A stretch of 64,000 nucleotides of DNA. It comes from Clostridia bacterium 41_269. GTDB lineage: Bacteria > Bacillota > DTU086. The stretch lies in assembly GCA_001508005.1 (NCBI GenBank), contig LGEZ01000009.1:2493-66492 (forward strand). The letters are read 5' to 3'. Each line of letters begins with the position of its first letter. The first letter of the stretch is position 1. Of the stretch, positions 10,185-50,609 are shown piece after piece. The notes beneath the pieces are model-generated. The model searched no databases. It saw only the letters and a program-made list of their open reading frames with translations, and was not told where the DNA came from. Position numbers and translations under genes: made by a program.

Positions 10185-10523
10185 GTGAAAATACAAGTGG
10201 AGAAATTAAAAGATACTTTATTTCTAAGACTTAAGGGAGAATTTGACATGCTGACAGCTGATGAATTTCGCAGTGCAGTGGATGATCATTTTGATGGCAA
10301 AAGAGTTAAGAATTTAATTTTGGATATAAGTAAGGTATCATTTATAGATAGTTCAGGCCTGGGAGCTATTTTAGCCAGATACAAAAAGATAAAGCAGCTT
10401 AATGGGAACATGGTAATTGTTGGTGCAAAACCACAAGTTAAGAGGGTTTTAGAGCTATCTGGAGTTGTTAAAATAATAGAAGTTTATGATGATGAAAAGT
10501 CTGCATTGATGGGGCTGTTATAA
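10185..10523 (+). CDS. spoIIAA: anti-sigma F factor antagonist (STAS domain)
   Basis: 112 aa STAS protein with the conserved phosphorylatable serine (DSSGLGAI). First gene of the spoIIAA-AB-sigF operon. Confidence 0.85.
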   Translation: MKIQVEKLKDTLFLRLKGEFDMLTADEFRSAVDDHFDGKRVKNLILDISKVSFIDSSGLGAILARYKKIKQLNGNMVIVGAKPQVKRVLELSGVVKIIEVYDDEKSALMGLL

Positions 10524-10539
10524 AAGGAGGAAATGCAGG

Positions 10540-11016
10540 ATGACGGTGAAAGATCGAGGCGAAATAATCAATTATGTTCAACTGGAGTTTTTAAGTGTAC
10601 CAGAAAATGTAAGCCTTTCACGGGTTGTGGTTGCTTCTTTTGCTGCGCAGCTTGATTTAACTTTGAATGACCTGGAGGAAATAAAAGTTGCAGTTTCAGA
10701 AGCTGTGTCAAATTCGATAATACATGGTTATAATAACAAACCTGTGGGAAAAGTTTATGTAACAGTGATGCGTTACGAAAAGGAATTGGTAATAATAGTA
10801 AAAGATGAGGGTGTTGGTATCAAAGATGTTAAAAAAGCTATGGAGGCAGCGTATTCAACAGATCCTGAAAGAATGGGACTTGGTTTTGTATTTATGAAAT
10901 CCTTTATGGATGAAGTAAATGTTGTATCAGAACCGGGAAAAGGGACCACTGTAGAGTTAGTTAAAAAGTTGGAGTTGCCTAAAAAGACAACCGGTAAACA
11001 GGCTCCAAAGGAATGA
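10540..11016 (+). CDS. spoIIAB: anti-sigma F factor, serine protein kinase
   Basis: GHKL-type kinase about 150 aa (SNSIIHGY, GVGI), between spoIIAA and sigF. Confidence 0.85.
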   Translation: MTVKDRGEIINYVQLEFLSVPENVSLSRVVVASFAAQLDLTLNDLEEIKVAVSEAVSNSIIHGYNNKPVGKVYVTVMRYEKELVIIVKDEGVGIKDVKKAMEAAYSTDPERMGLGFVFMKSFMDEVNVVSEPGKGTTVELVKKLELPKKTTGKQAPKE

Positions 11017-11022
11017 AGTGCC

Positions 11023-11820
11023 ATGAAGCTATCAGAAATGAACCTTCCCCGTTTTCCCTTACTTTCTGATTCGGAAACAAAAGAACTTTTAAAGAAAGCC
11101 AAAAACGGGGATGAAGAAGCTAGGGAAAAATTAATCAACTGCAACCTTAAATTGGTATTTAATCTAGTTAAAAGATTTGAAAACCGCGGCTGTGAGCTGG
11201 AAGATTTATTCCAGATAGGAACCATTGGACTGATGAAAGCTATTGATAAATTTGATCTGTCCTATGATGTTAAATTTTCCACATATGCTGCTCCTATGAT
11301 TATTGGAGAAATTAGAAGATTTCTTAGGGATGATAATCCTGTAAAAGTTAGTCGTTCTGTTAAAAAAATAGCTTATGAAGTTAACCGCAAAAGGGAAGAA
11401 TTGGCCAAAGAACTTGGAAGGGAACCTTCCATTGGGGAAGTTTCAGAAGCTTTAGGATTGTCCGCTGAAGAAGTGGTTATCGCAATGGAAGCAGTGCAGC
11501 AGCCGAGCTCAATACATGATACTCTTTATCAGGATGACGGAGATCCCATTTACGTGCTTGATCAATTAAGAAGCGATATAGATGATGAATCAGCATGGTT
11601 TGATAAAATAGCGTTGAAAGAAATCCTTTTGAAGCTTCCGGAAAAGCATAGAAAAGTTCTCATACTTAGATTTCTACATGATAAAACTCAAACAGAAGTT
11701 GCAGAAATTGTGGGTCTTTCACAGGTCCAGGTTTCTCGCATTGAACGCCAGGCAATTGCTGCTTTAAGAAAAATGATTTCTGAGGAAGAAGGTATGGATA
11801 AATCTCAAAATATAAAATAA
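11023..11820 (+). CDS. sigF: RNA polymerase sporulation sigma factor F
   Basis: Sigma-70 regions 2, 3 and 4 (FSTYAAPMIIGEIRRFLRD, TQTEVAEIVGLSQVQVSRIERQAI). Third gene of the operon. Confidence 0.85.
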   Translation: MKLSEMNLPRFPLLSDSETKELLKKAKNGDEEAREKLINCNLKLVFNLVKRFENRGCELEDLFQIGTIGLMKAIDKFDLSYDVKFSTYAAPMIIGEIRRFLRDDNPVKVSRSVKKIAYEVNRKREELAKELGREPSIGEVSEALGLSAEEVVIAMEAVQQPSSIHDTLYQDDGDPIYVLDQLRSDIDDESAWFDKIALKEILLKLPEKHRKVLILRFLHDKTQTEVAEIVGLSQVQVSRIERQAIAALRKMISEEEGMDKSQNIK

Positions 11821-11896: not shown

Positions 11897-11951
11897 CAGC
11901 TTGCTGGCAAAGGGTCTCTTCAATACAAGACTTTTTAAACAGTCTGAAAAA

Positions 11952-11978
11952 AGGGGGAGTATTCCCCTCTTTTTTTAT
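11952..11978 (+). terminator. terminator hairpin after sigF
   Basis: GGGGGA-gtat-TCCCC followed by T7. Confidence 0.5.
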
Positions 11979-12049
11979 TCTCTATAAACATCTCCGAATA
12001 ATTGCAGTGGCTGGGGAAAAAAATATTTAGAGGAGGTGAAAAATAGTTT

Positions 12050-12550
12050 ATGGCTGGATTTACGGGCCCAGAAGACACCAGTAGATTAAAAAAGCAGTTT
12101 GACCATTCTAAGAAACAATATGAGCAGGAGAAATATCAAAAAATAGCCCAAAAACATGTTCCAAAAGCTTCTATATTTAGAAATTCCCTTAATGCTTTTC
12201 TTATGGGTGGCTTAATTTGTGCTGTTGCTCAAGCTTTATTTAATTTGATTTCAAGTGCCGGCTTTACGGTAAAAGAAGCCAATACCATTGTAGCAGTGAT
12301 AATGATATTTTTGGGTGCTTTTTTAACAGGAATTGGTATTTATGACAGCATTGCTAAAGTTGGAGGAGCTGGAGCAATGGTTCCCATTACAGGTTTTGCT
12401 AATTCAATTGTAGCTCCAGCTATGGAATTTAAAAAAGAAGGATATATTTTTGGAATTGGAGCCAGGATGTTTTCCACTGCTGGTCCCGTTCTTGTTTATG
12501 GAATTGTTACTTCTATAATTGTAGGATTAATTGCTTTTACCATAATGTAG
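12050..12550 (+). CDS. spoVAC: stage V sporulation protein AC
   Basis: About 160 aa membrane protein with a SpoVAC-like N-terminal region (FLMGGLICAVAQ). Confidence 0.8.
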   Translation: MAGFTGPEDTSRLKKQFDHSKKQYEQEKYQKIAQKHVPKASIFRNSLNAFLMGGLICAVAQALFNLISSAGFTVKEANTIVAVIMIFLGAFLTGIGIYDSIAKVGGAGAMVPITGFANSIVAPAMEFKKEGYIFGIGARMFSTAGPVLVYGIVTSIIVGLIAFTIM

Positions 12551-12562
12551 GAGGCAGTATGA

Positions 12563-13582
12563 ATGTTTGAAATAAAAAAAGTAGGTAAGCAGACAATTAA
12601 GTTTGCCAATCCCCCAGTTATTTTGGAAACATCCTCCATAGTCGGGCCAAAAGAAGGAGAAGGCCCTTTAAAGGATACCTTTGATTATATTGCTGATGAT
12701 ATGTATTTTGGTGAAAAAAGCTGGGAACGGGCGGAAAGAAAATTTTTAGAAGAAGCTGTAAAAATCGTTTTGAACAAAAGGAAGCAAACTTCCCAGGATA
12801 TAGATTTTTTATTAGCAGGTGATCTTTTAAATCAAATAATTTCTTCAAATTTTGCTGCCAGTACATTGGGAATACCTTTTTTTGGGCTTTATGGTGCCTG
12901 TTCCACTATGTATGAGGCAATTATTCTGGCTTCCGTTTTGATAGATGGGGGATTTGCCCAAAAAGTAATAGCTGCCACCTCAAGCCATTATGCCACTTCT
13001 GAAAGACAGTTCAGGTATCCCACGGAACAGGCTGTACAAAGGCCTCTTACTGCTCAATGGACTGTCACTGGAGCAGGAGCTATGCTCCTCGGCACTCCCG
13101 ACCAAGGAGAGGGACCCGTTGTAACCTTTGCTACTGTGGGTAGAGCAGTTGATGCCGGAGCAAAAGATCCCATGGATATGGGGTCTGCAATGGCTCCAGC
13201 AGCGGTGGATACCATAATTGCTCATTTAGAGGATACGGGTAGAAGAGTTGAAGATTATGATCTGGTTATAACAGGGGATTTAGGTTCAGTGGGTCGTTCC
13301 ATTGCTATCGAGCTGGCGAACATAAATGGATATGATCTTTCAAAAAATTTTAATGACTGTGGAATTCTTATTTTTAATCCTTCTCAGGATACCCATGCAG
13401 GGGGAAGCGGATGTGCCTGTTCAGCCGTGGTTACCTGCGGCTATATTATGAAAGCCCTTCGTGAGAAAAAGTATAAAAGAATATTGGGCATTGGTACTGG
13501 TGCGCTGATGAGTGTTACCAGCATTCAACGGCAGGAAACCATACCGGCAATAGGACATGCTGTAGCCATAGAAAATGTATGA
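12563..13582 (+). CDS. spoVAD: stage V sporulation protein AD
   Basis: 339 aa thiolase-fold-like protein between spoVAC and spoVAE. Confidence 0.8.
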   Translation: MFEIKKVGKQTIKFANPPVILETSSIVGPKEGEGPLKDTFDYIADDMYFGEKSWERAERKFLEEAVKIVLNKRKQTSQDIDFLLAGDLLNQIISSNFAASTLGIPFFGLYGACSTMYEAIILASVLIDGGFAQKVIAATSSHYATSERQFRYPTEQAVQRPLTAQWTVTGAGAMLLGTPDQGEGPVVTFATVGRAVDAGAKDPMDMGSAMAPAAVDTIIAHLEDTGRRVEDYDLVITGDLGSVGRSIAIELANINGYDLSKNFNDCGILIFNPSQDTHAGGSGCACSAVVTCGYIMKALREKKYKRILGIGTGALMSVTSIQRQETIPAIGHAVAIENV

Positions 13583-13959
13583 AGTTAAAAGAGGTGAATA
13601 AAGTGTCTTTGCTGTGGGCCTTTTTAATTGGTGGTGCCATTTGCCTTGCAGGACAGTTAATAATGGATCTCACCCCTTATGAAATATCTACTGGTCATGT
13701 TTTGGTGGGCTATGTTACTTTAGGAGCTTTAGCAAGTGCTCTTGGATTGTATCAGCCTTTAGTTGATATTGGTGGGGCTGGTGCTACCATTCCTCTGTCA
13801 GGATTTGGCCATGGACTGGTTCAGGGGGTTCTCAGCAGCATTAAAAACCAGGGCATAATGGGTGTATTCATGGGAGGTATTGCTGCAAATGCTGCGGGTA
13901 TAGCAGCAGCAGTTATTTTTGGCTACATCATGGCTGTGTTATTCAATCCGAAAGGGTAA
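13579..13959 (+). CDS. spoVAEb: stage V sporulation protein AEb
   Basis: 126 aa membrane protein paralogous to SpoVAC (GGAG, GFGHG motifs). Overlaps the spoVAD stop. Confidence 0.75.
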   Translation: MKLKEVNKVSLLWAFLIGGAICLAGQLIMDLTPYEISTGHVLVGYVTLGALASALGLYQPLVDIGGAGATIPLSGFGHGLVQGVLSSIKNQGIMGVFMGGIAANAAGIAAAVIFGYIMAVLFNPKG

Positions 13960-13965
13960 TGAAAA

Positions 13966-14541
13966 ATGAAGAAACGAAAGGTAATAATAATTACGGATGG
14001 AGATGAAACAGCTCGTGCATCAGTGGAAGTAGTAGCACGAAAAGTTGGAGGAAGATGCATATCCCTTTCCGGCATTGCTTCAAAACCTCTTACAGGTAAA
14101 GAAATAGTGGAGCTCATTTTAAAAGCTCCAAAGGAACCTGTTTTTGTTATGGTGGATGATAAAGGTTTAAGTGCCCAAGGAATGGGAGAATGGATATTGA
14201 CGTTCATAGCTCGGCACCCTGCAATAGAAGTTATTGGAGCTGTTGCAGTGGCTTCTAATACAAAAAAGATTGATGGAACACCGGTGGATTTTTCTATAAC
14301 AAAAACGGGAGAAAAAACTGACTTACCTGTTGATAAATATGGAAATTCGGTTCCCACTGAAGGAGTTTTAAAAGGAGATACTGTGGATGTTTTAAAAGAG
14401 CTTAATATTCCCATTGTGGTTGGAACAGGGGATATAGGGAAACAGGATGGGGCAGATGATTTAAGTAAACAGGCTCCGGTAACCTTAGAAGCAGTAGAGG
14501 AAATCCTTAATAGGAGTGGTTTTTTTAATGGCAGTAACTGA
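13966..14541 (+). CDS. spoVAEa: stage V sporulation protein AEa-like soluble protein
   Basis: N-terminus MKKRKVIIITDGDETARASVEVVARKVGGRCISLSG matches recalled B. subtilis SpoVAEa. Position after AEb fits. Confidence 0.55.
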   Translation: MKKRKVIIITDGDETARASVEVVARKVGGRCISLSGIASKPLTGKEIVELILKAPKEPVFVMVDDKGLSAQGMGEWILTFIARHPAIEVIGAVAVASNTKKIDGTPVDFSITKTGEKTDLPVDKYGNSVPTEGVLKGDTVDVLKELNIPIVVGTGDIGKQDGADDLSKQAPVTLEAVEEILNRSGFFNGSN

Positions 14542-16099
14542 TGGGAAAGTTAAGACCTCAAAAAATCTTGAGCGAAATTCTGATTGGCTGAGTCAGGAGC
14601 TGGGAGTAGATAGGAGTTTTGATGTTATTAGACGTGACATTAATATAGCCAACAGGAAGGCAGCAATATTCTTTATCGATGGATTTATTAAGGATAGTGT
14701 TATGGAGAGGGTTTTGAGCGTCTTAAATACTATTGATCCCCAAGAAATTAGACCCTCTGCCTTTAAAAAAATTTTTCAAAAGTATCTTACATATATAGAA
14801 GTGGAGACAACTGATGATCTTCATGAAGTTGTTGATAAAGTGCTGGCAGGGCCAGCTGCTCTGTTAATTGACGGAATTGATGAAGTCATAATAATTGATG
14901 CAAGGGAATATCCCATAAGAAATCCTGAGGAACCTAATCTTGAAAGGGTTATTAGGGGTTCCAGAGATGGCTTTGTTGAAACCATTGTCTTTAATACTGC
15001 CCTGATACGAAGACGAATAAGAGATCCGAAATTAAGGATGGAAATGCTGCAGGTTGGCAGTCGTTCTAAAACAGATGTATGTGTGTGCTATATAGAGGAT
15101 ATTGCCAGTCCCAAATTAGTTGAAATGGTAAAAGAAAAAATCGCTAATATAAAAATCGACGGTATCCCTATGGCAGAAAAATCCATTGAAGAGCTTATAG
15201 CACCAGGCAGTTATTGGAATTTTTTTCCCAAAGTAAGGTACACAGAGCGTCCTGATGTTGCAGCCAATCATCTTTTAGAAGGGCATGTATTAATTATTGT
15301 GGATACTTCTCCGAGCATAATGATACTTCCGGCAACGTTGTGGCATCATCTTCAGCATGCCGAGGAATTTCGTCAGTCACCTACACTGGGTGTCTTTATT
15401 AGATGGCTTAGATATGCTGCTGTGTTTTTGTCTGTTTTTTTAATGCCCACATGGCTTCTATTTGCCTCTAATCCCCAGTACTTGCCGGAGATGTTGAAAT
15501 TTATTGGTCCATCTAAACCCGGCAAAATAAATCTAGCAGTTCAGTTTCTTTTAGCAGAAATGGGTATAAATCTCATGCGTATGGCAGCTATTCATACCCC
15601 TGATGCATTAACAACTTCCCTTGGAATAATTGCAGCAGTACTAATTGGTGATGTTGCTATTTCTGTGGGTTTATTTTCTCCAGAAGTGGTTCTGTACACT
15701 GCTATTGCGGCAGTTTCTATTTTTGCAACTCCGAGCTTTGAACTGGGAGCAGCAAATACATTGTTAAGAATAATGCTTTTGGTTGGCACAGGCCTTTTCG
15801 GATTAGCTGGTTTCTTAGGGGCGGCAGTTATTGTTTTTTTAATTCTGCTTACAACAAAGTCCTTTGGGGTTCCTTATCTCTGGCCTCTAATTCCTTTAAA
15901 TATCAGGGCATTGAGGGATATTTTTGTATGGCCTCCTGTGCCTGCAATAAGTCTTCGTATATTTGCTCCCCATTATAGGGATAAAACAAGGCAGGCGTCC
16001 CCTGTGGGAGCTTATGCAAAACCCATTCCAGAGGAAATGCCTGAAGTTAAAAAGCCAAGAAGAAAAAATAGAAAAAAGAGAAAAATTATAAAACTTTAA
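14516..16099 (+). CDS. spoVAF: stage V sporulation protein AF (GerA-family germination protein A-subunit homologue)
   Basis: 527 aa. N-terminal soluble domain plus C-terminal multi-TM domain typical of the GerA family. Last gene of the spoVA operon. Confidence 0.7.
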   Translation: MVFLMAVTDGKVKTSKNLERNSDWLSQELGVDRSFDVIRRDINIANRKAAIFFIDGFIKDSVMERVLSVLNTIDPQEIRPSAFKKIFQKYLTYIEVETTDDLHEVVDKVLAGPAALLIDGIDEVIIIDAREYPIRNPEEPNLERVIRGSRDGFVETIVFNTALIRRRIRDPKLRMEMLQVGSRSKTDVCVCYIEDIASPKLVEMVKEKIANIKIDGIPMAEKSIEELIAPGSYWNFFPKVRYTERPDVAANHLLEGHVLIIVDTSPSIMILPATLWHHLQHAEEFRQSPTLGVFIRWLRYAAVFLSVFLMPTWLLFASNPQYLPEMLKFIGPSKPGKINLAVQFLLAEMGINLMRMAAIHTPDALTTSLGIIAAVLIGDVAISVGLFSPEVVLYTAIAAVSIFATPSFELGAANTLLRIMLLVGTGLFGLAGFLGAAVIVFLILLTTKSFGVPYLWPLIPLNIRALRDIFVWPPVPAISLRIFAPHYRDKTRQASPVGAYAKPIPEEMPEVKKPRRKNRKKRKIIKL

Positions 16100-16173
16100 A
16101 GCAAAAACTAATGAATAAAAATACCAAAATTAGTAAATAATAGTTTTGAAGTTTTAAATGAAGGAGAGCAGCG

Positions 16174-17208
16174 ATGTCAGTAAAAGTTGGAATACCCAGG
16201 GCTCTTTTTTATTATTATCTTTTTCCTTTCTGGAAAGCATTTTTTGAATATTTAGGAGCCGAGGTTGTTGTTTCTCCCCCAACCAATAAGCAAATTTTGA
16301 ATATAGGAGTTAAGACATCTGTTGATGAAGCATGTCTTCCTGTAAAAGTATATTACGGGCATGTAATTTCTTTAAGGGATAGGGTTGATTTATTATTTTT
16401 ACCACGGCTGGTGAGTATTGAAAAGAAAGCATATATCTGCCCTAAATTTATGGGTCTTCCCGATATGATCCGTTCCACCCTGTCGGGGCTCCCACCTATT
16501 ATTGATGTGAATTTTAATGCTGTCAAAGGGCATAGGGCTTACAAAAAAACAGTTTTAAAGTTGGGCAGTAATTTTTGCAGCAGCTTGAGAAAAATAAATA
16601 GAGCTTGGGTTGAAGCAGTACGGCATCAAAAAGAATTTGAAGAGCTGCAGACTTATGGTTTTTCCCCCATTGAAGCTCTTAGGGTTTTGCAGGAAGGCAG
16701 GAAAGAAAAGAAAAAGAAAAAAATTTTTGATTTTTCCCATGAAATTGCTGTTTTAGGGCATGGATATACCATATATGATGATTTCTTGAGTCTTAATACT
16801 ATCAAACATTTGAATGATTTAGGAGCAAAAATTAGCACGGCAGAAAACCTGCCCATAAATTTGCTTGAAGAAAAAGCAGAAAAACTTCCAAAAAGAATGT
16901 TTTGGACCATGGGGAAGAGGATTCTAGGAGCCGCACTCCATTATTTAGAAAGTTCTCAAATTGATGGTTTTGTATATGTTACGGTTTTTGGCTGTGGTCC
17001 TGATTCGGTAATTGCTGATTTGACTGAACGCTACGCCCGAAGACGGGGAATGCCTTTTATCCTTATTACTCTAGATGAACATTCAGGGGAAGCTGGAGTA
17101 ATAACCAGACTTGAAGCTTTTGTAGATATGCTTGCAAGGAGAGGTAAACATGAAAATTACTTTTCCTCATATGGGAAATCTGTGGATATCTGCCAAAGTA
17201 CTTCTTGA
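16174..17208 (+). CDS. CoA-enzyme-activase-associated domain protein (DUF2229-like), paralogue 1
   Basis: Paralogous to the next ORF. Shared N-terminal motif (LGAEVVVSPP vs LGLEVVVPPP) and C-terminal motif DEHSGEAGVITRLEAFVDM. Confidence 0.45.
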   Translation: MSVKVGIPRALFYYYLFPFWKAFFEYLGAEVVVSPPTNKQILNIGVKTSVDEACLPVKVYYGHVISLRDRVDLLFLPRLVSIEKKAYICPKFMGLPDMIRSTLSGLPPIIDVNFNAVKGHRAYKKTVLKLGSNFCSSLRKINRAWVEAVRHQKEFEELQTYGFSPIEALRVLQEGRKEKKKKKIFDFSHEIAVLGHGYTIYDDFLSLNTIKHLNDLGAKISTAENLPINLLEEKAEKLPKRMFWTMGKRILGAALHYLESSQIDGFVYVTVFGCGPDSVIADLTERYARRRGMPFILITLDEHSGEAGVITRLEAFVDMLARRGKHENYFSSYGKSVDICQSTS

Positions 17209-18247
17209 AGGATTGGGATTGGAAGTTGTGGTTCCTCCCCCTTGTACCAAGAAAACCCTGAGTTTAGGTGTTCTGCATGCCCCTGAATTTATATGTCTGC
17301 CTTTAAAAATTAATTTGGGCAATTATATGGAAGCAGCAGAAAAGGGTGCGGATACCATTATTATAGCTGGAGGGAGAGGACCATGCCGATTTGGTTACTA
17401 CTGCAGACTGGAAAAGGAGATATTAGATGACTTGGGATATGAGTTTAGAATGATAGTTTTGGAACCCCCTGAGAATAATTTTTTGGAAGTAATACAAAAT
17501 ATTCGAGCTTTGTCAAAGTGCAGCATGTTTCAGATGATAAATGCTGTTAGAACTGCCTGGTTTAAGTGCTGTGCGGTGGATGAAGTTGAAAAAAAAGTTC
17601 AGATAGTTCGGGCTTGGGAAAGCTGTCCAGGCTTAGCTGATAAGATTTACAGGGAAGCTTTAAAAAATATTGATAAAGCTCAGACGATTAAAGAAATTTT
17701 TTTTGCAAAACTTAATGTTTTGGAAGCTTTTAATGATGTTCCTGTGGAACCTGAGCGTGAAGTTATACGCTTAGCCCTGGTAGGAGAAATATATACCATA
17801 TTAGAACCCTTTGCAAATCAGAATATTGAAAGGCATTTAGGAAAGCTGGGAGCAGAAGTTAAAAGATCAATTTATTTGAGCAGTTGGGTAAACGATCACC
17901 TTCTAGGCAGTATTCTCCCAATGGAAAGTACTAAAGAGGCATGCAGGATGTCTTCTCCTTATTTAAACTATTTTGTGGGAGGACATGGAAAAGAAACAGT
18001 GGGCAGTGCTGTTAAATTTTCTCGTGAAGGATTCGATGGAATAATTCAAATTGCACCCCTGACATGTGGTCCTGAGATAGTAGCGGAATCTATTCTTTCT
18101 AAGGTTTCCTTTAGCGAAAAAATTCCTGTTATGACCATATATATGGACGAGCAGTCAGGTGAAGCAGGACTTATAACACGACTGGAAGCTTTTGTGGATA
18201 TGATCCGACGCAAAAAGTTGTCCCAAAAAACAGCAACCCGTAAATAA
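17150..18247 (+). CDS. CoA-enzyme-activase-associated domain protein (DUF2229-like), paralogue 2
   Basis: Start placed at ATG 17150 (MKITFPHMG...) with a GGAGAGG RBS. C-terminal motif MDEQSGEAGLITRLEAFVDM. Confidence 0.45.
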   Translation: MKITFPHMGNLWISAKVLLEGLGLEVVVPPPCTKKTLSLGVLHAPEFICLPLKINLGNYMEAAEKGADTIIIAGGRGPCRFGYYCRLEKEILDDLGYEFRMIVLEPPENNFLEVIQNIRALSKCSMFQMINAVRTAWFKCCAVDEVEKKVQIVRAWESCPGLADKIYREALKNIDKAQTIKEIFFAKLNVLEAFNDVPVEPEREVIRLALVGEIYTILEPFANQNIERHLGKLGAEVKRSIYLSSWVNDHLLGSILPMESTKEACRMSSPYLNYFVGGHGKETVGSAVKFSREGFDGIIQIAPLTCGPEIVAESILSKVSFSEKIPVMTIYMDEQSGEAGLITRLEAFVDMIRRKKLSQKTATRK

Positions 18248-18262
18248 AAGGGGGTATTTCCC

Positions 18263-19261
18263 ATGAAATCATACATGGGAATAGATGTCGGCTCAGTAAG
18301 CACTAATATTGTGCTGTTAGACGACAAAGGGGATTTAATTGAAAAGCTGTATGTTAGAACCAATGGGCAGCCCATAAATGCTGTTCAAAAAGGTCTTAAA
18401 AAAATTGAAGAAAAGATTAAAGCCAATGGTTGGGATGTTGAAATTGCTGGTGTAGGTACTACCGGAAGCGGAAGGAAGCTTGCTGCTGTCATAGTTGGGG
18501 CTGATGTTGTTAAAAATGAAATAACAGCCCATGCAGTAGCAGCAATGAATGCTGTGCCCGAAGTCCAAACAGTGATTGAAATTGGAGGGCAGGATTCAAA
18601 AATTATAATAATCCGCAATAGAGTTGTTGCAGATTTTGCAATGAATACAGTTTGCGCTGCAGGCACAGGTTCCTTTCTTGATCAGCAGGCTGCAAGGCTC
18701 AGCTTAACCATAGAAAAGTTCAGCAGGATGGCGTTAAATGCTCAGACTCCTGTGAGAATAGCAGGTAGATGTTCTGTTTTTGCTGAATCGGATATGATAC
18801 ACAAACAGCAGATGGGACATAATCTTCCGGACATTATTGCAGGGCTTTGCGATGCATTGGTTCGAAATCATCTTAATAATGTAGGGAAAGGAAAAGAAAT
18901 ACTGAGCCCAATAGTTTTCCAGGGCGGTGTTGCAGCTAACGAAGGCATGAGGGAAGCTTTCCGAAAAGCTTTGGACGCTGAAATTATTATTCCAGAGAAT
19001 TTTGAGGTAATGGGAGCTATAGGAGCTGCACTATTAGCTCGGGAAAAAATGCTTCAAAATAAAGATATTAAAACGGCGTTTAAAGGTTTTAGTACAATAA
19101 ACTGTGATTTAAAAGTTAGGGGATTTGAATGCAGCGAGTGTCCAAATTTATGTGAAGTGGTAGAAATATACGAGAATTTACAGATTTTAGCCCGCTGGGG
19201 CGACCGCTGTGGAAAGTGGACGGAAGGAATTCAAGAGCAAAAAAATGTTAATTTTAACTGA
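18263..19261 (+). CDS. BadF/BadG/BcrA/BcrD/HgdC-type ATPase (CoA-substrate-specific enzyme activase) with Cys-rich C-terminal tail
   Basis: Acetate/sugar-kinase-fold ATPase motifs (GIDVGSVSTN, GVGTTGSG, GGQDSK, CAAGTGSF). C-terminal CxxCxxxC cluster. Confidence 0.7.
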   Translation: MKSYMGIDVGSVSTNIVLLDDKGDLIEKLYVRTNGQPINAVQKGLKKIEEKIKANGWDVEIAGVGTTGSGRKLAAVIVGADVVKNEITAHAVAAMNAVPEVQTVIEIGGQDSKIIIIRNRVVADFAMNTVCAAGTGSFLDQQAARLSLTIEKFSRMALNAQTPVRIAGRCSVFAESDMIHKQQMGHNLPDIIAGLCDALVRNHLNNVGKGKEILSPIVFQGGVAANEGMREAFRKALDAEIIIPENFEVMGAIGAALLAREKMLQNKDIKTAFKGFSTINCDLKVRGFECSECPNLCEVVEIYENLQILARWGDRCGKWTEGIQEQKNVNFN

Positions 19262-19342
19262 TCTGCGGTTTTTATACCCTTTACAAGGGAGTTTATTTCC
19301 TGTAGAATTACACTATAATTTTAATTTTTATATATAAAAGCT

Positions 19343-19379
19343 GAGAAGAGAGGAGAGGAGAAAGTTGAGAGGAGAAGAA
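19343..19379 (+). promoter_or_regulatory. (G)AG triplet-repeat cluster overlapping the RBS and start of trpB2, a candidate TRAP-type translational operator
   Basis: GAG at 19343, 19348, 19353 and 19358 with period 5. Then GAG at 19367 and 19372 and GAA at 19377. The TTG start at 19365 lies inside the cluster. Confidence 0.45.
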
Positions 19380-20678
19380 AAATTTACAAAAATTGTGCTG
19401 AACGAAGAGGAAATACCTACAAAGTGGTACAACATTCAGGCAGATATGCCTAAACTGCCGGATCCACCTTTGAATCCAGCAACCCGCGAGCCCATTAAGC
19501 CTGAAGATCTGTCTCACCTTTTTCCCATGGAATTAATTGAACAAGAAGTCAGCACAGAAAGATACATTGAAATACCCGAGGAAGTGCAGAACCTCTATCG
19601 CTTATGGAGGCCAACTCCCCTTATAAGAGCCCGCAGACTTGAAAAAGCTCTAGATACGCCTGCAAAAATATTTTATAAGTATGAAGGAGTAAGTCCGGCA
19701 GGGAGCCACAAACTTAATACTTCTATTCCCCAAGCATATTACAACAAGCGGGAAGGTATAAAAAGAATTACAACCGAAACAGGGGCAGGACAGTGGGGTA
19801 GCGCCCTGAGCATGTCGTGTAATTTTTTTGGAATGGAATGCGTAGTTTATATGGTTCGTGTGAGTTATGATCAAAAACCTTACCGCAGAACCTTTATGCA
19901 GGTTTTTGGTGCTCAGGTTGTTCCCAGTCCCAGCCAGCGTACAAAGGCTGGAAGAAAGGCTCTGGAGTTAGATCCCAATACTCCAGGAAGCCTGGGCCTA
20001 GCCATAAGTGAAGCTGTAGAAGAAGCTGCTTCAAGGGATGATACAGCTTATTCCCTTGGCAGCGTGTTAAATCATGTTGTGCTGCACCAGACCGTTATTG
20101 GACAAGAAGTTAAAGCGCAGATGGAAAAGGTTGATGCATACCCTGATATAATAATTGGCTGCTGTGGAGGAGGAAGTAATTTTGCAGGTTTGGCTTTTCC
20201 TTTTATAAAAGATAAATTTGAAGGTAAAAAAATTAAGGTTATTGCTGTAGAACCTGCTGCTTGTCCCACATTAACCCAAGGAAGCTTTCAATATGACTAT
20301 GGAGGTACAGCAAAGATGACCCCTTTAATGAAAATGTACACCCTGGGGTATGATTTTGTTCCTTCAGGCATACATGCAGGGGGATTAAGATATCATGGCG
20401 AATCCCCATTGGTAAGCCAGCTGTATCATGATGGATATATAGAAGCTGTTTCATACAAGCAGACTGAAATTTTTGAGGCTGCAGTTACCTTTGCTAAAAA
20501 TGAAGGCATAATTCCGGCTCCAGAAAGTGCCCATGCTATAAAAGCAGCAATAGATGAAGCATTGAAATGCCGCGAGGCAGGAGAATCTAAAAATATTGTA
20601 TTTGGATTAAGCGGCCATGGCTATTTTGATATGTCGGCTTATGATGCTTATTTAAGCGGTTCCCTGATGGATGTATAG
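19365..20678 (+). CDS. trpB2: tryptophan synthase beta chain, TrpB2 type (stand-alone)
   Basis: 437 aa with the N-terminal extension [12 protein letters not shown] and PLP-lysine motif GSHKLN, characteristic of TrpB2. Located outside the trp operon. Confidence 0.8.
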
Positions 20679-20793: not shown

Positions 20794-22122
20794 GTGGGAT
20801 GGGTGAAGCTGCATGGCACAATGCATATTAATGATAAGGGACACTTGGAAATCGGGGGGTGCGATACAGTTGATCTGGCTAATGAATTTGGAACCCCCCT
20901 TATAGTATATGATGAAGATTACATCCGCCAAATGTGCCGCCGTTTCAGAAAAGCCTTTATTAATGGGTTAAATGGCAGAGGGGATGTTGCCTATGCTGCT
21001 AAAGCTTTTCTTACTCTTGCTGTGGCATCAATGATTATGGAGGAAGGACTTTCAATGGACGTGGTTTCTGGGGGAGAATTGTTTACGGCATTGAAGGCTG
21101 GTTTTCCCCCAGAAAGAATTTATTTTCATGGTAACAACAAAAACAAGGAGGAGCTGGAGCTTGCGGTTAAATCTGGAGTGGGAAGGATCATAGTTGATAA
21201 CTATTATGAGCTGGATTTGCTGGAAGAAATTACATCAAAAGAAAAAAAATCTATATCCATAATGCTGAGGCTCACTCCAGGTATTGAGGCACACACCCAT
21301 GAATACATTAAAACGGGTCAGGAGGATTCAAAGTTTGGGTTTACTTTATCAAAAGATATAGCCTTTAATGCTGTTAAGAGGGTTCTTAGTATTCCCAATG
21401 TTACTCTTAAAGGGTTTCACTGCCATATTGGTTCCCAAATTTTTGAGACAGAACCCTTTAAAATAGCTGCGGAAATTTTAATGGAGTTCAGGAAAAGGGT
21501 TGAAGAAGAACTGGATTATGAAGTGGAAGAATTAAACCTTGGTGGAGGTTTTGGAATATATTACAGTGAAGGAGATAGGCCGCTGGAAATTGAAAAATAT
21601 GCGGATACTATAAAAGAAGCGGTTTATAAAAAAGCTGAAGAGTACGGTCTCAGCATACCCAAAATCATTGTTGAACCAGGCAGATCTGTTGTAGGCCCTG
21701 CGGGTACCACCTTATACACCGTCGGTTCCATTAAAGAAATACCAGGTATAAGAAAATATGTGTCTGTGGATGGAGGTATGGCTGATAACATTAGACCTGC
21801 TCTTTATAAGGCAAAATATGAAGCTGTTGTAGCAAATAAAGTAAATTGGGAACTGGATCAGGTGGTTTCCATAGCAGGTAAGTGCTGTGAATCCGGAGAC
21901 ATGCTCATTTGGGATATAAAACTGCCCAAGGTGGAACCAGGTGATATTTTAGCTGTATTCTGTACAGGTGCTTATGGATATTCCATGGCCAGCAACTATA
22001 ATAAACTTGGAAGACCTGCGGTGGTTATAGTTAAAGAAGGCAGGGCGGATTTAATTGTAAAACGGGAAACCTATGAAGATCTAATAAGAAATGAAGTTGT
22101 TCCTGATAGACTGTTTAAATAA
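20794..22122 (+). CDS. lysA: diaminopimelate decarboxylase
   Basis: Fold-III PLP decarboxylase motifs (YAAKAF, GGGFGI, CESGD). The true start may be the ATG at 20821. Confidence 0.9.
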   Translation: MGWVKLHGTMHINDKGHLEIGGCDTVDLANEFGTPLIVYDEDYIRQMCRRFRKAFINGLNGRGDVAYAAKAFLTLAVASMIMEEGLSMDVVSGGELFTALKAGFPPERIYFHGNNKNKEELELAVKSGVGRIIVDNYYELDLLEEITSKEKKSISIMLRLTPGIEAHTHEYIKTGQEDSKFGFTLSKDIAFNAVKRVLSIPNVTLKGFHCHIGSQIFETEPFKIAAEILMEFRKRVEEELDYEVEELNLGGGFGIYYSEGDRPLEIEKYADTIKEAVYKKAEEYGLSIPKIIVEPGRSVVGPAGTTLYTVGSIKEIPGIRKYVSVDGGMADNIRPALYKAKYEAVVANKVNWELDQVVSIAGKCCESGDMLIWDIKLPKVEPGDILAVFCTGAYGYSMASNYNKLGRPAVVIVKEGRADLIVKRETYEDLIRNEVVPDRLFK

Positions 22123-33597: not shown

Positions 33598-33631
33598 TTC
33601 TTTGATTAAAAAATTTTTAGGAGGCTGGTTC

Positions 33632-35116
33632 ATGAAACCTGGTTTAAATGAATTTTTAACTTTTGCCCAAAGGGAAAATATTGTTCCAGTATGGGATGAG
33701 ATAGATATATACGATGAGACTCCCATATCGGTTTTTGAAAAGATTGCTGATGAAAGAGAGATTTCATATCTTCTGGAAAGTGCTGATGCAGGAGAACAGG
33801 GTGCACGATATTCATTTATGGGTATTAAACCCATTGCCAAATTCAGTGCAAAAGGTTCCCTTATTAGAATAGAGGAGGAAGGATATGAACAAAAATGTTT
33901 TGGTAATCCCACAGCTCTATTAAAAAATTTTTTAAAAAAATATTATATCGATAACCAAACTGTAGATGATGTGGTGAATTTTTGCGGCGGCGCTGTGGGA
34001 TATCTATCTTATGACTGGGTTCGTTACCTTGAGAATATACCCATAAAGAGCATAGATGATCTGGGGCTGCCCGATGGTATGTTTATTATTTTTAAAATAA
34101 ATCTTTTGTTCGATCATCTAAAAAATACTTTAAAAATCATAGTTTTGACTAAAACAGAAAAAAATCCTGAAATGGAGTACAAGCAGGCCATATCTTTGAT
34201 AAACAGTATAAAAGAAAAAATTTACCGCCGTAATTGCTTAAAAGGCAGCGTAGAAATTAACGGGTGCGTTCCCAACATTATATTTTCTGCTACTTTAAAC
34301 CATGATGATTATGTGAAAGGTGTAAAAAAAATCCTTGAATATATAAGAGCAGGAGATATATTTCAAGCTGTTCTTTCAACCCGTCTGGAAACAAAAGTTG
34401 TGGAAAGCCCTCTAAAAATTTACAGATGCTTAAAAATGATCAATCCTTCTCCCTATATGTTTTACCTGAATTATCCAGGATTTCAGCTCATAGGTGCATC
34501 CCCTGAGATGCTTGTGAAAGTTGAAAAAGGAAAAATATACAATAGGCCCATTGCAGGCACCCGCCCCCGAGGCAGTAGTGAAGAAGAAGATAAGATCCTT
34601 GCGGAAGAACTTAAAAAGGATCCCAAAGAAAAGGCAGAACACATCATGCTTGTAGATCTTGCCAGGAATGATGTGGGTAGGACTGCGCAGTTTGGAACTG
34701 TTAGGGTGCCTGAACTGATGGCTGTTGAAAAATATTCCCATGTAATGCATTTAGTGTCTCTTGTGGAAGGCAGACTTGCAGAAGATAAAAATGCTGTGGA
34801 CGCCTTAATGGCATGTTTCCCTGCTGGTACTGTATCTGGGGCTCCTAAAGTGAGAGCCATGGAAATTATAGAAGAGCTGGAACCTGTGAGAAGGGGGCCC
34901 TATGCTGGATCGGTTGGTTATTTTAGTTTAAATGGAGATATGGATACCTGCATAACCATTAGGACTATCCTAATTAAGGATAATAGAGCCTATGTCCAGG
35001 TAGGAGCTGGAATTGTAGCAGATTCTAAACCTGATAAAGAATATGAGGAGTGTATTAATAAGGGAAAAGCGTTGATTTCAGCCCTGTATGCTGCTGAAAG
35101 GAGGGCTATTTCATGA
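33632..35116 (+). CDS. trpE: anthranilate synthase component I
   Basis: Chorismate-binding motifs (AGTRPRG, LLESADAGE). ATG 33632 after an AGGAGG RBS. Confidence 0.9.
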   Translation: MKPGLNEFLTFAQRENIVPVWDEIDIYDETPISVFEKIADEREISYLLESADAGEQGARYSFMGIKPIAKFSAKGSLIRIEEEGYEQKCFGNPTALLKNFLKKYYIDNQTVDDVVNFCGGAVGYLSYDWVRYLENIPIKSIDDLGLPDGMFIIFKINLLFDHLKNTLKIIVLTKTEKNPEMEYKQAISLINSIKEKIYRRNCLKGSVEINGCVPNIIFSATLNHDDYVKGVKKILEYIRAGDIFQAVLSTRLETKVVESPLKIYRCLKMINPSPYMFYLNYPGFQLIGASPEMLVKVEKGKIYNRPIAGTRPRGSSEEEDKILAEELKKDPKEKAEHIMLVDLARNDVGRTAQFGTVRVPELMAVEKYSHVMHLVSLVEGRLAEDKNAVDALMACFPAGTVSGAPKVRAMEIIEELEPVRRGPYAGSVGYFSLNGDMDTCITIRTILIKDNRAYVQVGAGIVADSKPDKEYEECINKGKALISALYAAERRAIS

Positions 35117-35691
35117 TACTGGTCTGCGATAATTACGACTCTTTTACCTATAATCTCGTCCAGTATTTAGGTGAACTGGGTGCGGAAACCTTTGTTTTCA
35201 GAAACGATGAATTGAGACCTCAAGATTTTTGTAATCTGGAACAGTATGTCAGGGGCGTTGTAATTTCTCCTGGCCCCGGAAAACCTGAGGATGCGGGTAT
35301 ATCTATGGATCTGGTGAGATATTTTGCAGGCAGGGTACCGGTTCTGGGAATATGTTTGGGCCATCAGTGCATAGGCAGGGTTTTCGGGGGAGAAATTGTG
35401 CCTGCAAAAGCCCTTTTTCATGGAAAGACTTCTGAAATCAGGCATGATGGAAAAGTGCTTTTTGAAAATGTTTCAAACCCTTTTACAGCGACCAGGTATC
35501 ATTCCCTGGTCATTGACAGAAAGAAAATTCCTGCATGTCTGGAGGTGACTGCAGAGACGGAAGATGGAGAGGTAATGGGGGTGAGGCACAGGGATTTTAA
35601 AATTGAGGGTCTTCAGTTTCATCCTGAATCTATTTTGACTTTAGAGGGAAAAAAGATAATATCAAATTTTTTAAACATGTGTGCTGATTAG
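35113..35691 (+). CDS. trpG: anthranilate synthase component II (glutamine amidotransferase)
   Basis: GATase class I motifs (GICLGHQ catalytic Cys, HPES). Confidence 0.9.
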   Translation: MILVCDNYDSFTYNLVQYLGELGAETFVFRNDELRPQDFCNLEQYVRGVVISPGPGKPEDAGISMDLVRYFAGRVPVLGICLGHQCIGRVFGGEIVPAKALFHGKTSEIRHDGKVLFENVSNPFTATRYHSLVIDRKKIPACLEVTAETEDGEVMGVRHRDFKIEGLQFHPESILTLEGKKIISNFLNMCAD

Positions 35692-35726
35692 AATAGCTGA
35701 GATCAGCTGAGATTAGCTGAGAGGAG
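35689..35726 (+). promoter_or_regulatory. NAG triplet repeats (8 at exact 5-nt period) spanning the trpG stop and trpD RBS
   Basis: UAG, UAG, GAG, CAG, GAG, UAG, GAG, GAG at 35689, 35694 ... 35724. The last two form the GAGAGGAGG SD of trpD (GTG 35735). Confidence 0.5.
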
Positions 35727-35734
35727 GAATTCAA

Positions 35735-37526: not shown

Positions 37527-37531
37527 GGATT

Positions 37532-46214: not shown

Positions 46215-46266
46215 ATGAATAAATGAATAGTATAAATGAATAAATGAATAGTATAAATGAATAATT
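46215..46266. repeat. tandem repeat, about 2.5 copies of a 21-nt unit (aatgaataaatgaatagtata)
   Basis: The octamer AATGAATA occurs 5 times (46215, 46223, 46236, 46244, 46257), directly upstream of the ispH-rpsA gene. Confidence 0.7.
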
Positions 46267-48628: not shown

Positions 48629-48678
48629 AATGCCTTTTTATGTTGAATAATTGCAATTTTTCAGGGGCAATATAAACT

Positions 48679-50587: not shown

Positions 50588-50609
50588 AGGGCAGCGTGGG
50601 GGAAATTAA

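What the first reader, a model, noticed from the sequence alone, without database searches (positions are those of the whole stretch)
16174..19261. Split CoA-substrate-specific enzyme activase-like system (two DUF2229-like paralogues plus a BadF/HgdC-type ATPase) between spoVAF and trpB2
Three co-directional, tightly packed genes. Two paralogues share N-terminal (LG.EVVV.PP) and C-terminal (DE.SGEAG.ITRLEAFVDM) motifs. They are followed by an acetate/sugar-kinase-fold ATPase of the 2-hydroxyacyl-CoA dehydratase activator family with a Cys-rich tail (CDLK...CSECPNLC). In many Clostridia these domains are fused into one protein of about 1400 aa of unknown function. Here they are separate and embedded among sporulation genes, where B. 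subtilis has nothing between spoVAF and lysA. There is no obvious dehydratase partner, so the substrate is unknown.
Basis: partly seen in the sequence, partly recalled or inferred. Interest (0 to 1): 0.55.

Follow-up and report, generated by a model that had tools for sequence, protein, structure and literature searches.

The report
Split PlsA/Ger-like reductase in spoVA operon
Three tightly packed genes after the spore operon spoVA encode a complete, split version of the iron-sulfur enzyme family that makes bacterial ether lipids (PlsA/Ger), and their position and promoter suggest it is switched on inside the developing spore, a link not found in the searched literature.

Summary
In detail: three co-directional genes, A 16174-17208, B 17150-18247 and C 18263-19261. 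A and B are DUF2229/HGD-D paralogues, and C is an HgdC-type ATPase with a conserved four-Cys tail.

[quoted passage not shown] A and B are not orphan "activase-related" proteins. They correspond to its two catalytic modules (A = Red1, B = Red2; 100/100 bootstrap), and C corresponds to the second activator domain plus linker. All putative metal-ligand cysteines are conserved. The system is therefore complete, with no missing partner.

New here:
- The A-B-C order holds in 72 of 80 genome loci.
- In about half of the loci it directly follows spoVA, sometimes overlapping it.
- Where it stands alone, 55% of loci carry a forespore sigma-G/F-type promoter at a fixed position, against 4.5% of controls.
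- The window has such a site at 16112-16142.

A divergent "type 2" clade and Monoglobus lack these signals.

Most likely this is a forespore-expressed, ATP-driven ester reductase acting on membrane lipids. The substrate and the expression timing are inferred, not shown.

The parts
16112..16142 (+). Predicted forespore (sigma-G/F-class) promoter: TGAATA, 16 nt, TAAATAATA, ending 31 nt before the ATG of A
   Evidence: The PWM was built from 41 mapped C. difficile sigF/sigG promoters. This site scores 14.3, the 99.4th percentile of 532 control upstream regions and the top of 47 window genes scored. Prediction only.
16160..16168 (+). Ribosome-binding site of A (GAAGGAGAG)
   Evidence: Read directly from the sequence.
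16174..17208 (+). Gene A: Red1-type catalytic subunit (full DUF2229 plus HGD-D C-terminus), 344 aa; invariant C54, C89, C274
   Evidence: 35% identity to Red1 of fused proteins; pLDDT 90.6.
17150..18247 (+). Gene B: Red2-type (probably PlsR-like) catalytic subunit, 365 aa, overlapping A by 59 nt; invariant C49, C79, C306
   Evidence: (24.5-27% identity to Red2).
18263..19261 (+). Gene C: HgdC/BcrAD-type ATP-dependent electron activator, 332 aa. It has the bridging-cluster cysteines C131 and C170 and a conserved tail C290-x2-C293-x3-C297...C316
   Evidence: 1HUX, 4EHT and 9GAI at about 1e-35; 46-50% identity to Act2 plus linker.
12050..16099 (+). Upstream spoVA operon (spoVAC, AD, AEb, AEa, AF). 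No terminator-like site lies between spoVAF and A, so read-through into A-B-C is possible
11995..12025 (+). Predicted forespore-type promoter of spoVAC (CGAATA, 16 nt, AAAAAAATA), just after the sigF terminator at 11945-11977
   Evidence: score 11.4, 94th percentile. spoVAC is sigma-G-dependent in C. difficile.
19277..19308 (+). Downstream boundary: a weak hairpin (19277-19289) and a sigma-70-like promoter (TTTACA, 17 nt, TAGAAT) ahead of trpB2
   Evidence: It suggests trpB2 is a separate transcription unit (inference).

Best explanation
A, B and C together encode a complete three-polypeptide member of the PlsA/Ger branch of the benzoyl-CoA reductase / 2-hydroxyacyl-CoA dehydratase superfamily.

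Proposed mechanism (inferred):
1. C forms a homodimer that holds a bridging [4Fe-4S] cluster on C131 and C170.
2. C accepts an electron from a low-potential donor such as ferredoxin or flavodoxin, and uses ATP hydrolysis to inject it into the A-B heterodimer.
3. A and B each carry three invariant cysteines, the number expected for one [4Fe-4S] cluster with an open coordination site.
4. By analogy with the characterised fused enzymes, the A-B pair reduces a carboxylic ester, most probably the sn-1 acyl ester of a membrane glycerophospholipid, to a vinyl ether (plasmalogen) or an alkyl ether.

What sets this version apart is when and where it is predicted to be made. In this window and in many Clostridia it is the distal part of the spoVA operon and/or has its own sigma-G/F-type promoter. 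That points to synthesis in the forespore, where it would act on the future inner spore membrane.

Status of each step:
- Shown here: gene structure, one-to-one homology to the fused enzymes, conserved cysteines, fold, synteny, and promoter-motif enrichment.
- Inferred: cluster content, homodimeric C, lipid substrate, and forespore expression.

Rough sub-confidences: complete PlsA/Ger-type enzyme about 0.9; forespore expression in this organism about 0.7; lipid ester as substrate about 0.5.
For: Homology to the fused enzymes:
- A C+A+B concatenate aligns colinearly with ~1400-aa PF01869+PF09989 proteins at 33-34% identity over 98-100% of its length.
- Domain by domain: C matches Act2 plus the Cys-rich linker at 46-50%, A matches Red1 at about 35%, and B matches Red2 at 24.5-27%.
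- The split (A+Red1 | B+Red2) has 100/100 bootstrap support.
- All candidate ligand cysteines are 100% conserved in both split and fused forms.

Fold: the AF2 model of A (pLDDT 90.6) matches DCCP, HadC, BzdO and MbdN at Foldseek probability 1.0. C matches HgdC, HadI, MbdQ and DCCP-R.

Family function: PlsA and Ger ester-to-ether activity was shown by heterologous expression (PMC13159169, PMC12838417).

Divergence: the window's proteins are about as far from a Listeria PlsA orthologue (24-31%) as the Desulfobacterota fused type is (28%).

Sporulation link:
- A<B<C order in 72 of 80 loci.
- spoVA directly upstream in about 40 loci; median gap 82 nt, with overlaps of -11 to +3 nt in six of them.
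- Forespore-type motif at fixed spacing and position in 55% of stand-alone loci against 4.5% of controls.
- The window site ranks first among the window genes scored.
- spoVAC is sigma-G-dependent in C. difficile.
Against: - No expression data and no biochemical data exist for any split member.
- The literature says PlsA and Ger cannot be told apart by sequence, and calls the role of homologues lacking the activation domain 'unclear' (PMC13274423).
- A divergent 'type 2' clade (0 of 7 loci) and Monoglobus (sigma-A-like promoter) lack the sporulation signals, so the link is lineage-specific.
- Promoter prediction in AT-rich spacers is error-prone. The loci are phylogenetically related, and the combined criterion was chosen after seeing the data.
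- spoVA adjacency could partly reflect inherited synteny.
- The C. difficile sigma-G regulon tables contain no obvious orthologue.
- The only lipid-gene neighbour, a cardiolipin-synthase-like gene, occurs in just 4 related loci.
- I could not obtain the validated PlsA or Ger sequences for a direct tree.
Confidence: 0.45

Rival explanations
1. The enzyme machinery is the same (ATP-driven activator plus a two-subunit Fe-S catalytic core) and it is expressed in the forespore, but the substrate is not a membrane lipid. It could be a soluble ester, thioester or carbonyl compound of spore-specific metabolism.
For: The superfamily is chemically diverse: acyl-CoA dehydration, arene reduction, and small-molecule reduction by DCCP. 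A and B are only 24-35% identical to fused family members. Ten residues conserved in A and 29 in B are not conserved in Red1 and Red2. There is no consistent lipid-gene neighbour.
Against: A matches the full DUF2229 model. In the papers consulted, the DUF2229-containing proteins with an assigned activity (PlsA, Ger) act on glycerolipid esters. Forty-one residues in A and 36 in B, including all Cys ligands, are conserved with Red1 and Red2. No CoA-transferase or CoA-ligase gene is conserved alongside.
Confidence: 0.25
2. This is an ordinary vegetative plasmalogen or ether-lipid synthase that happens to be encoded as three genes. Its position after spoVA is inherited synteny, and the promoter-like motif has no function.
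For: Monoglobus has a sigma-A-like promoter, and the type-2 sets show no sporulation signal. BLAST-threshold genome screens might count these genes as 'Ger homologues' (my inference from the thresholds quoted). Only 18% of spoVA-linked loci carry the motif.
Against: Gene overlaps with spoVAF or spoVAE of -11 to +3 nt in several genera imply co-transcription with an operon that is sigma-G-dependent in C. difficile. The motif is 12-fold enriched at a fixed position in lineages that lack the spoVA linkage, which is an independent route to the same regulation. Regex scans for sigma-E, sigma-K and sigma-A patterns found 0-1 of 37.
Confidence: 0.15
3. It is a double-cubane-cluster-type (DCCP/YjiM-like) reductase with its own activator, acting on small unsaturated molecules.
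For: The best PDB fold and sequence matches of A are to DCCP 6ENO and 7YYL. C matches DCCP-R at 6e-24.
Against: The NCBIfam double_cubane model scores 15.6 bits against a cut-off of 350. Sequence identity is only 12-13% and TM-score about 0.5. The PlsA/Ger-type fused proteins are far closer. A and B form a hetero-pair, each with only three invariant Cys.
Confidence: 0.07
4. One reading: an orphan CoA-enzyme activase system with no dehydratase partner and an unknowable substrate.
For: The database names ('activase-related protein', 'CoA enzyme activase uncharacterised domain') suggest this.
Against: A and B have the catalytic-subunit fold and cysteine ligands, and they are orthologous to the Red1 and Red2 modules of characterised enzymes.
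Confidence: 0.03

Closest known systems
PlsA/PlsR anaerobic plasmalogen synthase (C. perfringens CPE1194/1195; single-gene PlsA in Enterococcus, Lactococcus, Bifidobacterium, Listeria)
   Same: It has the same modules (activator ATPase, Red1, Red2), the same Pfam families, and there is already a precedent for a split (plsA plus plsR). B corresponds to the Red2 module; I infer this is PlsR from the ~128 kDa PlsA band reported in PMC12838417. The window's proteins align with a Listeria orthologue at 24-31% identity.
   Different: Here there are three genes in the order Red1-Red2-Act, not Act1-Act2-Red1(-Red2). There is one ATPase domain, not two. Identity is low. The sets studied here either follow spoVA, carry a forespore-type promoter, or show neither signal. 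No activity has been demonstrated.
Ger, glycerol ester reductase (T. maritima Tmari_0479; D. alkenivorans SHJ90043)
   Same: The nearest fused relatives found are ~1400-aa proteins from Desulfobacterota and Syntrophaceae, the phylum of D. alkenivorans. Identities are 46-51% for C, about 35% for A and 24.5-27% for B, with all Cys ligands and the Act2-Red1 Cys linker conserved.
   Different: Ger is a single polypeptide with two activation domains. I could not verify that the nearest fused hits are orthologues of the validated Ger. The published work gives no diagnostic motif that separates Ger from PlsA.
2-Hydroxyacyl-CoA dehydratases with their activators (HgdAB/HgdC, HadBC/HadI)
   Same: The logic is the same: an ATP-dependent homodimeric activator with a bridging [4Fe-4S] cluster plus a heterodimeric Fe-S catalytic pair. 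C matches HgdC and HadI at about 1e-35, and A's fold matches HadC.
   Different: PF06050 covers only the last ~80 residues of A and B. Identity to HadC is 12%. No CoA-transferase or related acyl-CoA genes lie nearby.
DCCP/DCCP-R (6ENO, 7YYL) and E. coli YjiM/YjiL
   Same: It gives the best solved-structure match for A and has a related activator.
   Different: The NCBIfam double_cubane model is far below its cut-off. The catalytic unit here is a hetero-pair, each subunit with three invariant Cys.
Class I benzoyl-CoA reductases (BzdNOPQ, MbdONPQ)
   Same: An ATP-driven electron 'archerase' plus a two-subunit catalytic module. Fold matches are 8S02 and 9G87, and C matches MbdQ at 1.5e-35.
   Different: BCR has two different ATPase subunits and acts on aromatic thioesters. 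The NCBIfam BCR models score far below their cut-offs.

Membership tests
PlsA/Ger glycerolipid ester reductases | PF01869 (BcrAD_BadFG) activation domain | tested here: met
   C scores PF01869 9.1e-46 and TIGR00241 180 bits (cut-off 125). It is 46-50% identical to Act2 of the fused proteins.
PlsA/Ger glycerolipid ester reductases | PF09989 (DUF2229) 'reduction' domain | tested here: met
   A matches at 1.3e-51 over model positions 1-217 of 218. B matches at 5.9e-10 over its N-terminal part only.
PlsA/Ger glycerolipid ester reductases | Two paralogous catalytic modules (Red1, Red2), each ending in an HGD-D-like segment | tested here: met
   The (A+Red1 | B+Red2) split has 100/100 bootstrap support. 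PF06050 C-terminal hits are 3e-07 for A and 9e-04 for B.
PlsA/Ger glycerolipid ester reductases | Conserved cysteine ligands and the Cys-rich Act2-Red1 linker | tested here: met
   A C54/C89/C274, B C49/C79/C306 and C C131/C170/C290/C293/C297/C316 are all 100% conserved in 68-77 split orthologues and 30 fused proteins.
PlsA/Ger glycerolipid ester reductases | Two tandem activation domains on the same polypeptide as the reductase (BB-D-H...), or the two-gene plsA-plsR form | tested here: not met
   There are three separate genes in the order Red1-Red2-Act, with a single ATPase domain. Intermediate A-B fusions of 690-770 aa exist.
PlsA/Ger glycerolipid ester reductases | Conversion of the sn-1 ester of glycerolipids to a vinyl ether or alkyl ether | not testable with these tools
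   This needs anaerobic heterologous expression and lipid analysis, as in PMC13159169 and PMC12838417.
PlsA/Ger glycerolipid ester reductases | The PlsA sequence motifs described by Jackson et al. 2021 | not tested
   The paper is not held in the library.
2-Hydroxyacyl-CoA dehydratase (HgdAB/HadBC type) | Full-length match of both catalytic subunits to PF06050 | tested here: not met
   Only model positions 262-342 of 342 match in A, and 283-342 in B.
2-Hydroxyacyl-CoA dehydratase (HgdAB/HadBC type) | HgdC-type activator with two cluster-bridging cysteines | tested here: met
   C matches 1HUX and 4EHT at about 1e-35. C131 and C170 are invariant. Their equivalence to the HgdC ligands is my inference from the alignment context.
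Double-cubane cluster protein (DCCP) | NCBIfam NF040772 equivalog score | tested here: not met
   15.6 bits against a cut-off of 350.
Forespore (sigma-G/F) regulon / spoVA operon | Co-transcription with spoVA, or a forespore-type promoter | tested here: inconclusive
   Sequence evidence is strong: no terminator-like site, 74-nt spacer, PWM site at the 99.4th percentile, conserved linkage. There are no transcript data.

The most novel reading that the evidence does not exclude
Many anaerobic endospore formers (Peptococcia/Desulfotomaculia, Syntrophomonadia, Moorella, Thermincola, Tissierellia, Acetivibrio and others) make a dedicated forespore-specific ether-lipid or plasmalogen synthase under sigma-G. 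It converts ester lipids of the forespore membrane into (vinyl) ether lipids. The inner spore membrane of these organisms would then differ chemically from the vegetative membrane, which could contribute to spore impermeability and heat resistance. It could also help explain why 'Ger homologues' are found in genomes of cultures in which no ether lipids were detected (PMC13159169).
Probability: 0.3. Interest if true: 0.8.

Novelty: new variant of a known kind. Interest (0 to 1): 0.6.

Why it matters
Three consequences would follow if the reading is right.

**A role for the "extra" PlsA homologues.** Lipid papers report PlsA homologues that lack the activation domain and leave their role unexplained (PMC13274423). 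This finding offers a concrete, testable role for at least some of them.

**A new candidate sporulation module.** It would add a conserved three-gene enzyme set, found in at least 570 species-level genomes, to the candidate sporulation gene set of Clostridia. That set has been defined largely from Bacillus and C. difficile, where I found no orthologue. The comparison with B. subtilis rests on my own knowledge.

**A testable question about the spore membrane.** Why the inner spore membrane is so impermeable is an open question. For anaerobes, ether-lipid remodelling in the forespore could now be tested directly.

There is also a practical point for annotation and genome screens. The names "acyl-CoA dehydratase activase-related protein" and "2-hydroxyacyl-CoA dehydratase" hide the fact that these are the two catalytic subunits of a PlsA/Ger-like enzyme. 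BLAST-threshold screens for "Ger" may also be counting these split genes; that is my inference.

Tried and rejected
- **Validated PlsA/Ger sequences.** Jackson et al. 2021 is not held. The supplements of the Ger and Bacillota papers were absent or lacked the domain tables. I therefore used a Listeria fused orthologue found in a mislabelled 'plasmid' record as the PlsA-side reference.
- **Expression evidence.** The C. difficile sigma-factor regulon tables contain no orthologue: CD2375 is a hypothetical protein, and CD1749/1750 look like a different HAD system. No spore proteome or transcriptome was found for a carrier species. The C. thermocellum proteomics paper mentions an 'activase' but does not say which paralogue.
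- **Prior descriptions.** Searches for DUF2229, COG3580, COG3581 or COG1924 together with sporulation found nothing.
- **Lipid-gene neighbourhood.** A cardiolipin-synthase-like gene lies upstream in only 4 related loci and has no consistent forespore-type promoter. The Gate-domain genes downstream start about 100-250 nt after C. Both are too weak to count as evidence.
- **Type-2 neighbourhood in Neomoorella.** It says nothing about the substrate.
- **Other negative results.** Rfam found no structured RNA in the window. The Cys tail matches no Pfam domain. B has no PDB sequence relative.
- **Technical reruns.** A first tree run was contaminated by A genes mis-picked as B and then timed out. It was redone.
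- **Considered and rejected.** A role in dipicolinate or lysine metabolism suggested by the lysA adjacency: from my own knowledge, the spoIIA-spoVA-lysA order is also the B. subtilis arrangement, so the adjacency is more simply explained as inherited synteny.
Full report
**1. What is there**

The window matches a Peptococcaceae MAG: protein P0001 is 100% identical to A and is named DEA47_03835. The surrounding gene order, all on the + strand, is:
- spoIIAA-spoIIAB-sigF (10185-11820), followed by a terminator at 11945-11977;
- spoVAC-AD-AEb-AEa-AF (12050-16099);
- A (16174-17208), B (17150-18247) and C (18263-19261);
- a TrpB-like gene (19365-20678) and lysA (20794-22122).

A has a GAAGGAGAG ribosome-binding site. 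B most likely starts at the ATG at 17150, behind AGGAGAGG, so it overlaps A by 59 nt. C follows B after 15 nt.

Domain assignments:
- A: PF09989 at 1.3e-51 over the full model, plus the C-terminal ~80 residues of PF06050.
- B: PF09989 at 5.9e-10 (N-terminus only) and a sub-threshold PF06050 C-terminus.
- C: PF01869 at 9.1e-46 and TIGR00241 above its cut-off.

A and B are paralogues: 25% identity, E = 7e-26.

**2. What the proteins are**

The fused ~1400-aa architecture is no longer of unknown function. It consists of two PF01869 domains, PF09989, and alternating HGD-D/DUF2229 pieces. [quoted passage not shown] Both were shown by heterologous expression in E. coli to convert glycerolipid ester bonds to vinyl-ether or alkyl-ether bonds (PMC9702350, PMC13159169, PMC12838417, PMC8788747).

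To find the nearest fused relatives I searched with a C+A+B concatenate. The top 120 hits were all proteins of 1392-1453 aa carrying PF01869 and PF09989. The named ones came from Deltaproteobacteria, Thermodesulfobacteriota or Syntrophaceae. They aligned colinearly at 32-34% identity over 98-100% of the query.

Domain by domain:
- C matches the second ATPase domain plus the following Cys-rich linker at 46-50% identity, and the first ATPase domain at 51-53% without the tail.
- A matches the first catalytic module (Red1) at about 35%.
- B matches the second catalytic module (Red2) at 24.5-27%.

A neighbour-joining tree of 25 A, 25 B, 15 Red1 and 15 Red2 sequences recovers the split (A+Red1 | B+Red2) in 100 of 100 bootstraps. 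The Red1/Red2 duplication is therefore older than the fusion or fission event, and A and B are orthologous to the two catalytic halves of the fused enzyme. Whether the split form is ancestral or derived is not resolved: monophyly of A has 19/100 support and of B 28/100.

Cysteines conserved at 100% in both split and fused forms:
- A: C54, C89, C274.
- B: C49, C79, C306.
- C: C131 and C170, which I take to be the HgdC-type bridging-cluster ligands.
- C tail: C290, C293, C297, C316, shared with Act2 and its linker but absent from Act1.

The tail matches no Pfam family.

The AlphaFold2 model of A is confident (pLDDT 90.6, pTM 0.87). Its best solved-structure matches are the catalytic subunits of the double-cubane cluster protein (7YYL, 6ENO), 2-hydroxyisocaproyl-CoA dehydratase (3O3M_D) and benzoyl-CoA reductases (8S02, 9G87), with TM-scores of 0.5-0.58 and probability 1.0. 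No PlsA or Ger structure appeared among the matches. C matches HgdC, HadI, MbdQ and DCCP-R by sequence.

So the 'missing dehydratase partner' is A plus B. The three genes encode a complete system.

On a common scale, the window's proteins are 24-31% identical to a Listeria monocytogenes fused PlsA orthologue. The Desulfobacterota fused type is 28% identical to that same Listeria protein. A-B-C therefore lies within the divergence range of the family, on the Desulfobacterota side.

Other fusion states exist. Proteins of 690-770 aa are colinear A-B fusions without an ATPase. The family is large: 3057 representative clusters at E <= 1e-3 and 585 at E <= 1e-30.

**3. Context: the part that is new**

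A pattern scan of one genome per species returned 570 confirmed relatives, and 80 loci were retrieved.
- 72 loci have A, B and C in that order.
- 4 are cut by contig ends.
- 4 have A and B but no adjacent C.
- A and B overlap in 84% of loci (median -29 nt). The median B-C gap is -4 nt.

In about 40 loci the spoVA operon lies immediately upstream on the same strand. By record title these are Thermincola, Pelotomaculum, Desulfofundulus, Desulfotomaculum, Desulfotruncus, Peptococcaceae, Desulfitobacteriaceae, Syntrophomonas and Moorella thermoacetica. The median gap from the last spoVA gene to A is 82 nt. In six loci, including M. thermoacetica, the two genes overlap or nearly abut (-11 to +3 nt), which implies co-transcription. 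In the window no terminator-like site lies between spoVAF and A.

In the loci without spoVA, a conserved element was visible upstream of A: GTATA, about 17 nt, CA(A/T)TAATA. To test it objectively I built a two-block weight matrix from the 41 experimentally mapped sigma-F and sigma-G promoters of C. difficile (Saujet et al. 2013, PMC3789822, Table S6). That table includes the spoVAC promoter as sigma-G-dependent.

Results against 532 upstream regions of other genes in the same loci (median 5.9, 95th percentile 11.6):
- The 39 A-upstream regions without spoVA have a median of 9.3 (Mann-Whitney p = 7e-9).
- A combined criterion (score >= 7.5, 16-nt spacer, -10 block ending 15-40 nt before the start codon) is met by 4.5% of controls.
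- The same criterion is met by 55% of the stand-alone loci outside type 2, by 18% of spoVA-linked loci, and by 0 of 7 'type 2' loci.
- Simple sigma-E, sigma-K and sigma-A patterns are not enriched.

In the window, the site TGAATA-16-TAAATAATA at 16112-16142 scores 14.3. That is the best of the 47 window genes scored. The spoVAC promoter region ranks fourth, and a cluster containing spoIIP ranks third.

Caveats:
- The loci are related to one another.
- The spacers are AT-rich.
- The combined thresholds were chosen after looking at the data.
- Sigma-F and sigma-G promoters cannot be separated reliably by sequence.

**4. Limits of the sporulation link**

Clustering of concatenated A-B-C sequences shows that context follows phylogeny.
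- One group is spoVA-linked.
- Several groups carry their own promoter.
- A divergent 'type 2' group comprises Moorella mulderi and M. naiadis, Neomoorella, two Pelotomaculum/Peptococcaceae MAGs, a Thermacetogenium MAG and one unclassified Bacillota MAG. It is only about 50% identical to the spoVA-linked sets of related taxa and lacks the motif.

The type-2 neighbours are uninformative. Monoglobus pectinilyticus has a split A-B-C set behind a sigma-A-like promoter. The module is therefore not intrinsically a sporulation gene set. It looks like an enzyme that several lineages have placed under forespore control by two different genomic routes.

**5. Mechanism proposed**

By homology, a C homodimer would carry one bridging [4Fe-4S] cluster and would receive an electron from a low-potential donor such as ferredoxin or flavodoxin. 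It would use ATP hydrolysis to deliver that electron to the Fe-S centres of the A-B heterodimer.

For PlsA, two sequential one-electron reductions of the ester carbonyl, followed by protonation and dehydration, have been proposed to give the vinyl ether (PMC8788747). Ger gives the saturated ether.

I propose the same chemistry here, acting on forespore membrane lipids. The shown and inferred steps are listed under Best explanation.

A published observation fits sporulation-restricted expression, although this remains speculative. Ger homologues are present in genomes of cultures in which no ether lipids were detected, which the authors attribute to 'specific physiological factors'.

**6. Novelty**

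The enzyme kind is known. The 2026 Bacillota lipid paper notes additional PlsA homologues that lack the activation domain and says their role is unclear. It does not mention a dedicated adjacent ATPase gene or sporulation.

Full-text searches found no description of the three-gene form, its spoVA linkage or its promoter. I rate it a new variant of a known kind, of moderate to good interest. It is a well-defined, testable hypothesis that connects ether-lipid biochemistry with spore biology.

Noticed in passing
window 35735-36046 and 36019-36747: trpD (anthranilate phosphoribosyltransferase) is split into two overlapping ORFs. The first carries Glycos_trans_3N. The second carries Glycos_transf_3 starting at model position 27. 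This is either a frameshift (pseudogene) or an assembly error in the MAG. The rest of the trp operon (33602-40198) looks intact from the ORF map.
   Followed up: partly
window 19365-20678: A stand-alone TrpB-like (TrpB2) gene sits between C and lysA, with its own sigma-70-like promoter (19280-19308), although the window also has a full trp operon. trpB2 follows A-B(-C) in about 16 of the 80 loci. I found no functional reason for this.
   Followed up: partly
L005, L009, L021, L028 (gene immediately upstream of A): A cardiolipin-synthase-like gene (2x PLDc_2) lies directly upstream of A on the same strand in four related Clostridiaceae/Alkaliphilus-type loci. It has no consistent forespore-type promoter, so it is at best a weak hint of a lipid connection.
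   Followed up: partly
L011, L013, L024, L051 (two genes downstream of C): A pair of small Gate-domain (PF07670) membrane proteins follows C, starting about 100-250 nt downstream. This is reminiscent of the SpmA/SpmB spore-maturation pair; that resemblance is from memory and was not tested.
   Followed up: partly
L068, L069, L070, L071, L073, L076, L079: These loci carry a second, divergent 'type 2' A-B-C set, about 50% identical to the spoVA-linked sets of related taxa and lacking the forespore-type motif. In Neomoorella an uncharacterised 321-aa ORF follows C after about 18 nt (L071 11051-12016; no Pfam hit).
   Followed up: partly
P0243, P0253, P0262, P0291 (690-770 aa): These are natural A-B (Red1-Red2) fusion proteins without an ATPase domain. 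With the three-gene form, PlsA+PlsR and the single-chain form, that makes at least four fusion states of the same modules.
   Followed up: yes
window 48644-48674, upstream of 48679-51515: The third-best forespore-type PWM site in the window precedes a DUF1614 - SpoIIP - YIEGIA gene cluster. It may be a real sporulation promoter and it serves as an informal positive control. The second-best site (46237-46266) precedes an IspH-S1 fusion gene and may be a chance match.
   Followed up: partly
L042 and L058: Two loci come from MAGs labelled Chitinophagales and Actinomycetota. L042 is a 3.9-kb contig that also carries spoVA genes. These are probably mis-binned Bacillota contigs and not evidence for the module outside Bacillota.
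   Followed up: no
L081 (NZ_CP030101.1) and other 'plasmids' records: Several records in the plasmid collection are multi-megabase and look like whole chromosomes labelled as plasmids, for example the 2.9-Mb Listeria monocytogenes record with only 12 annotated features.
   Followed up: no
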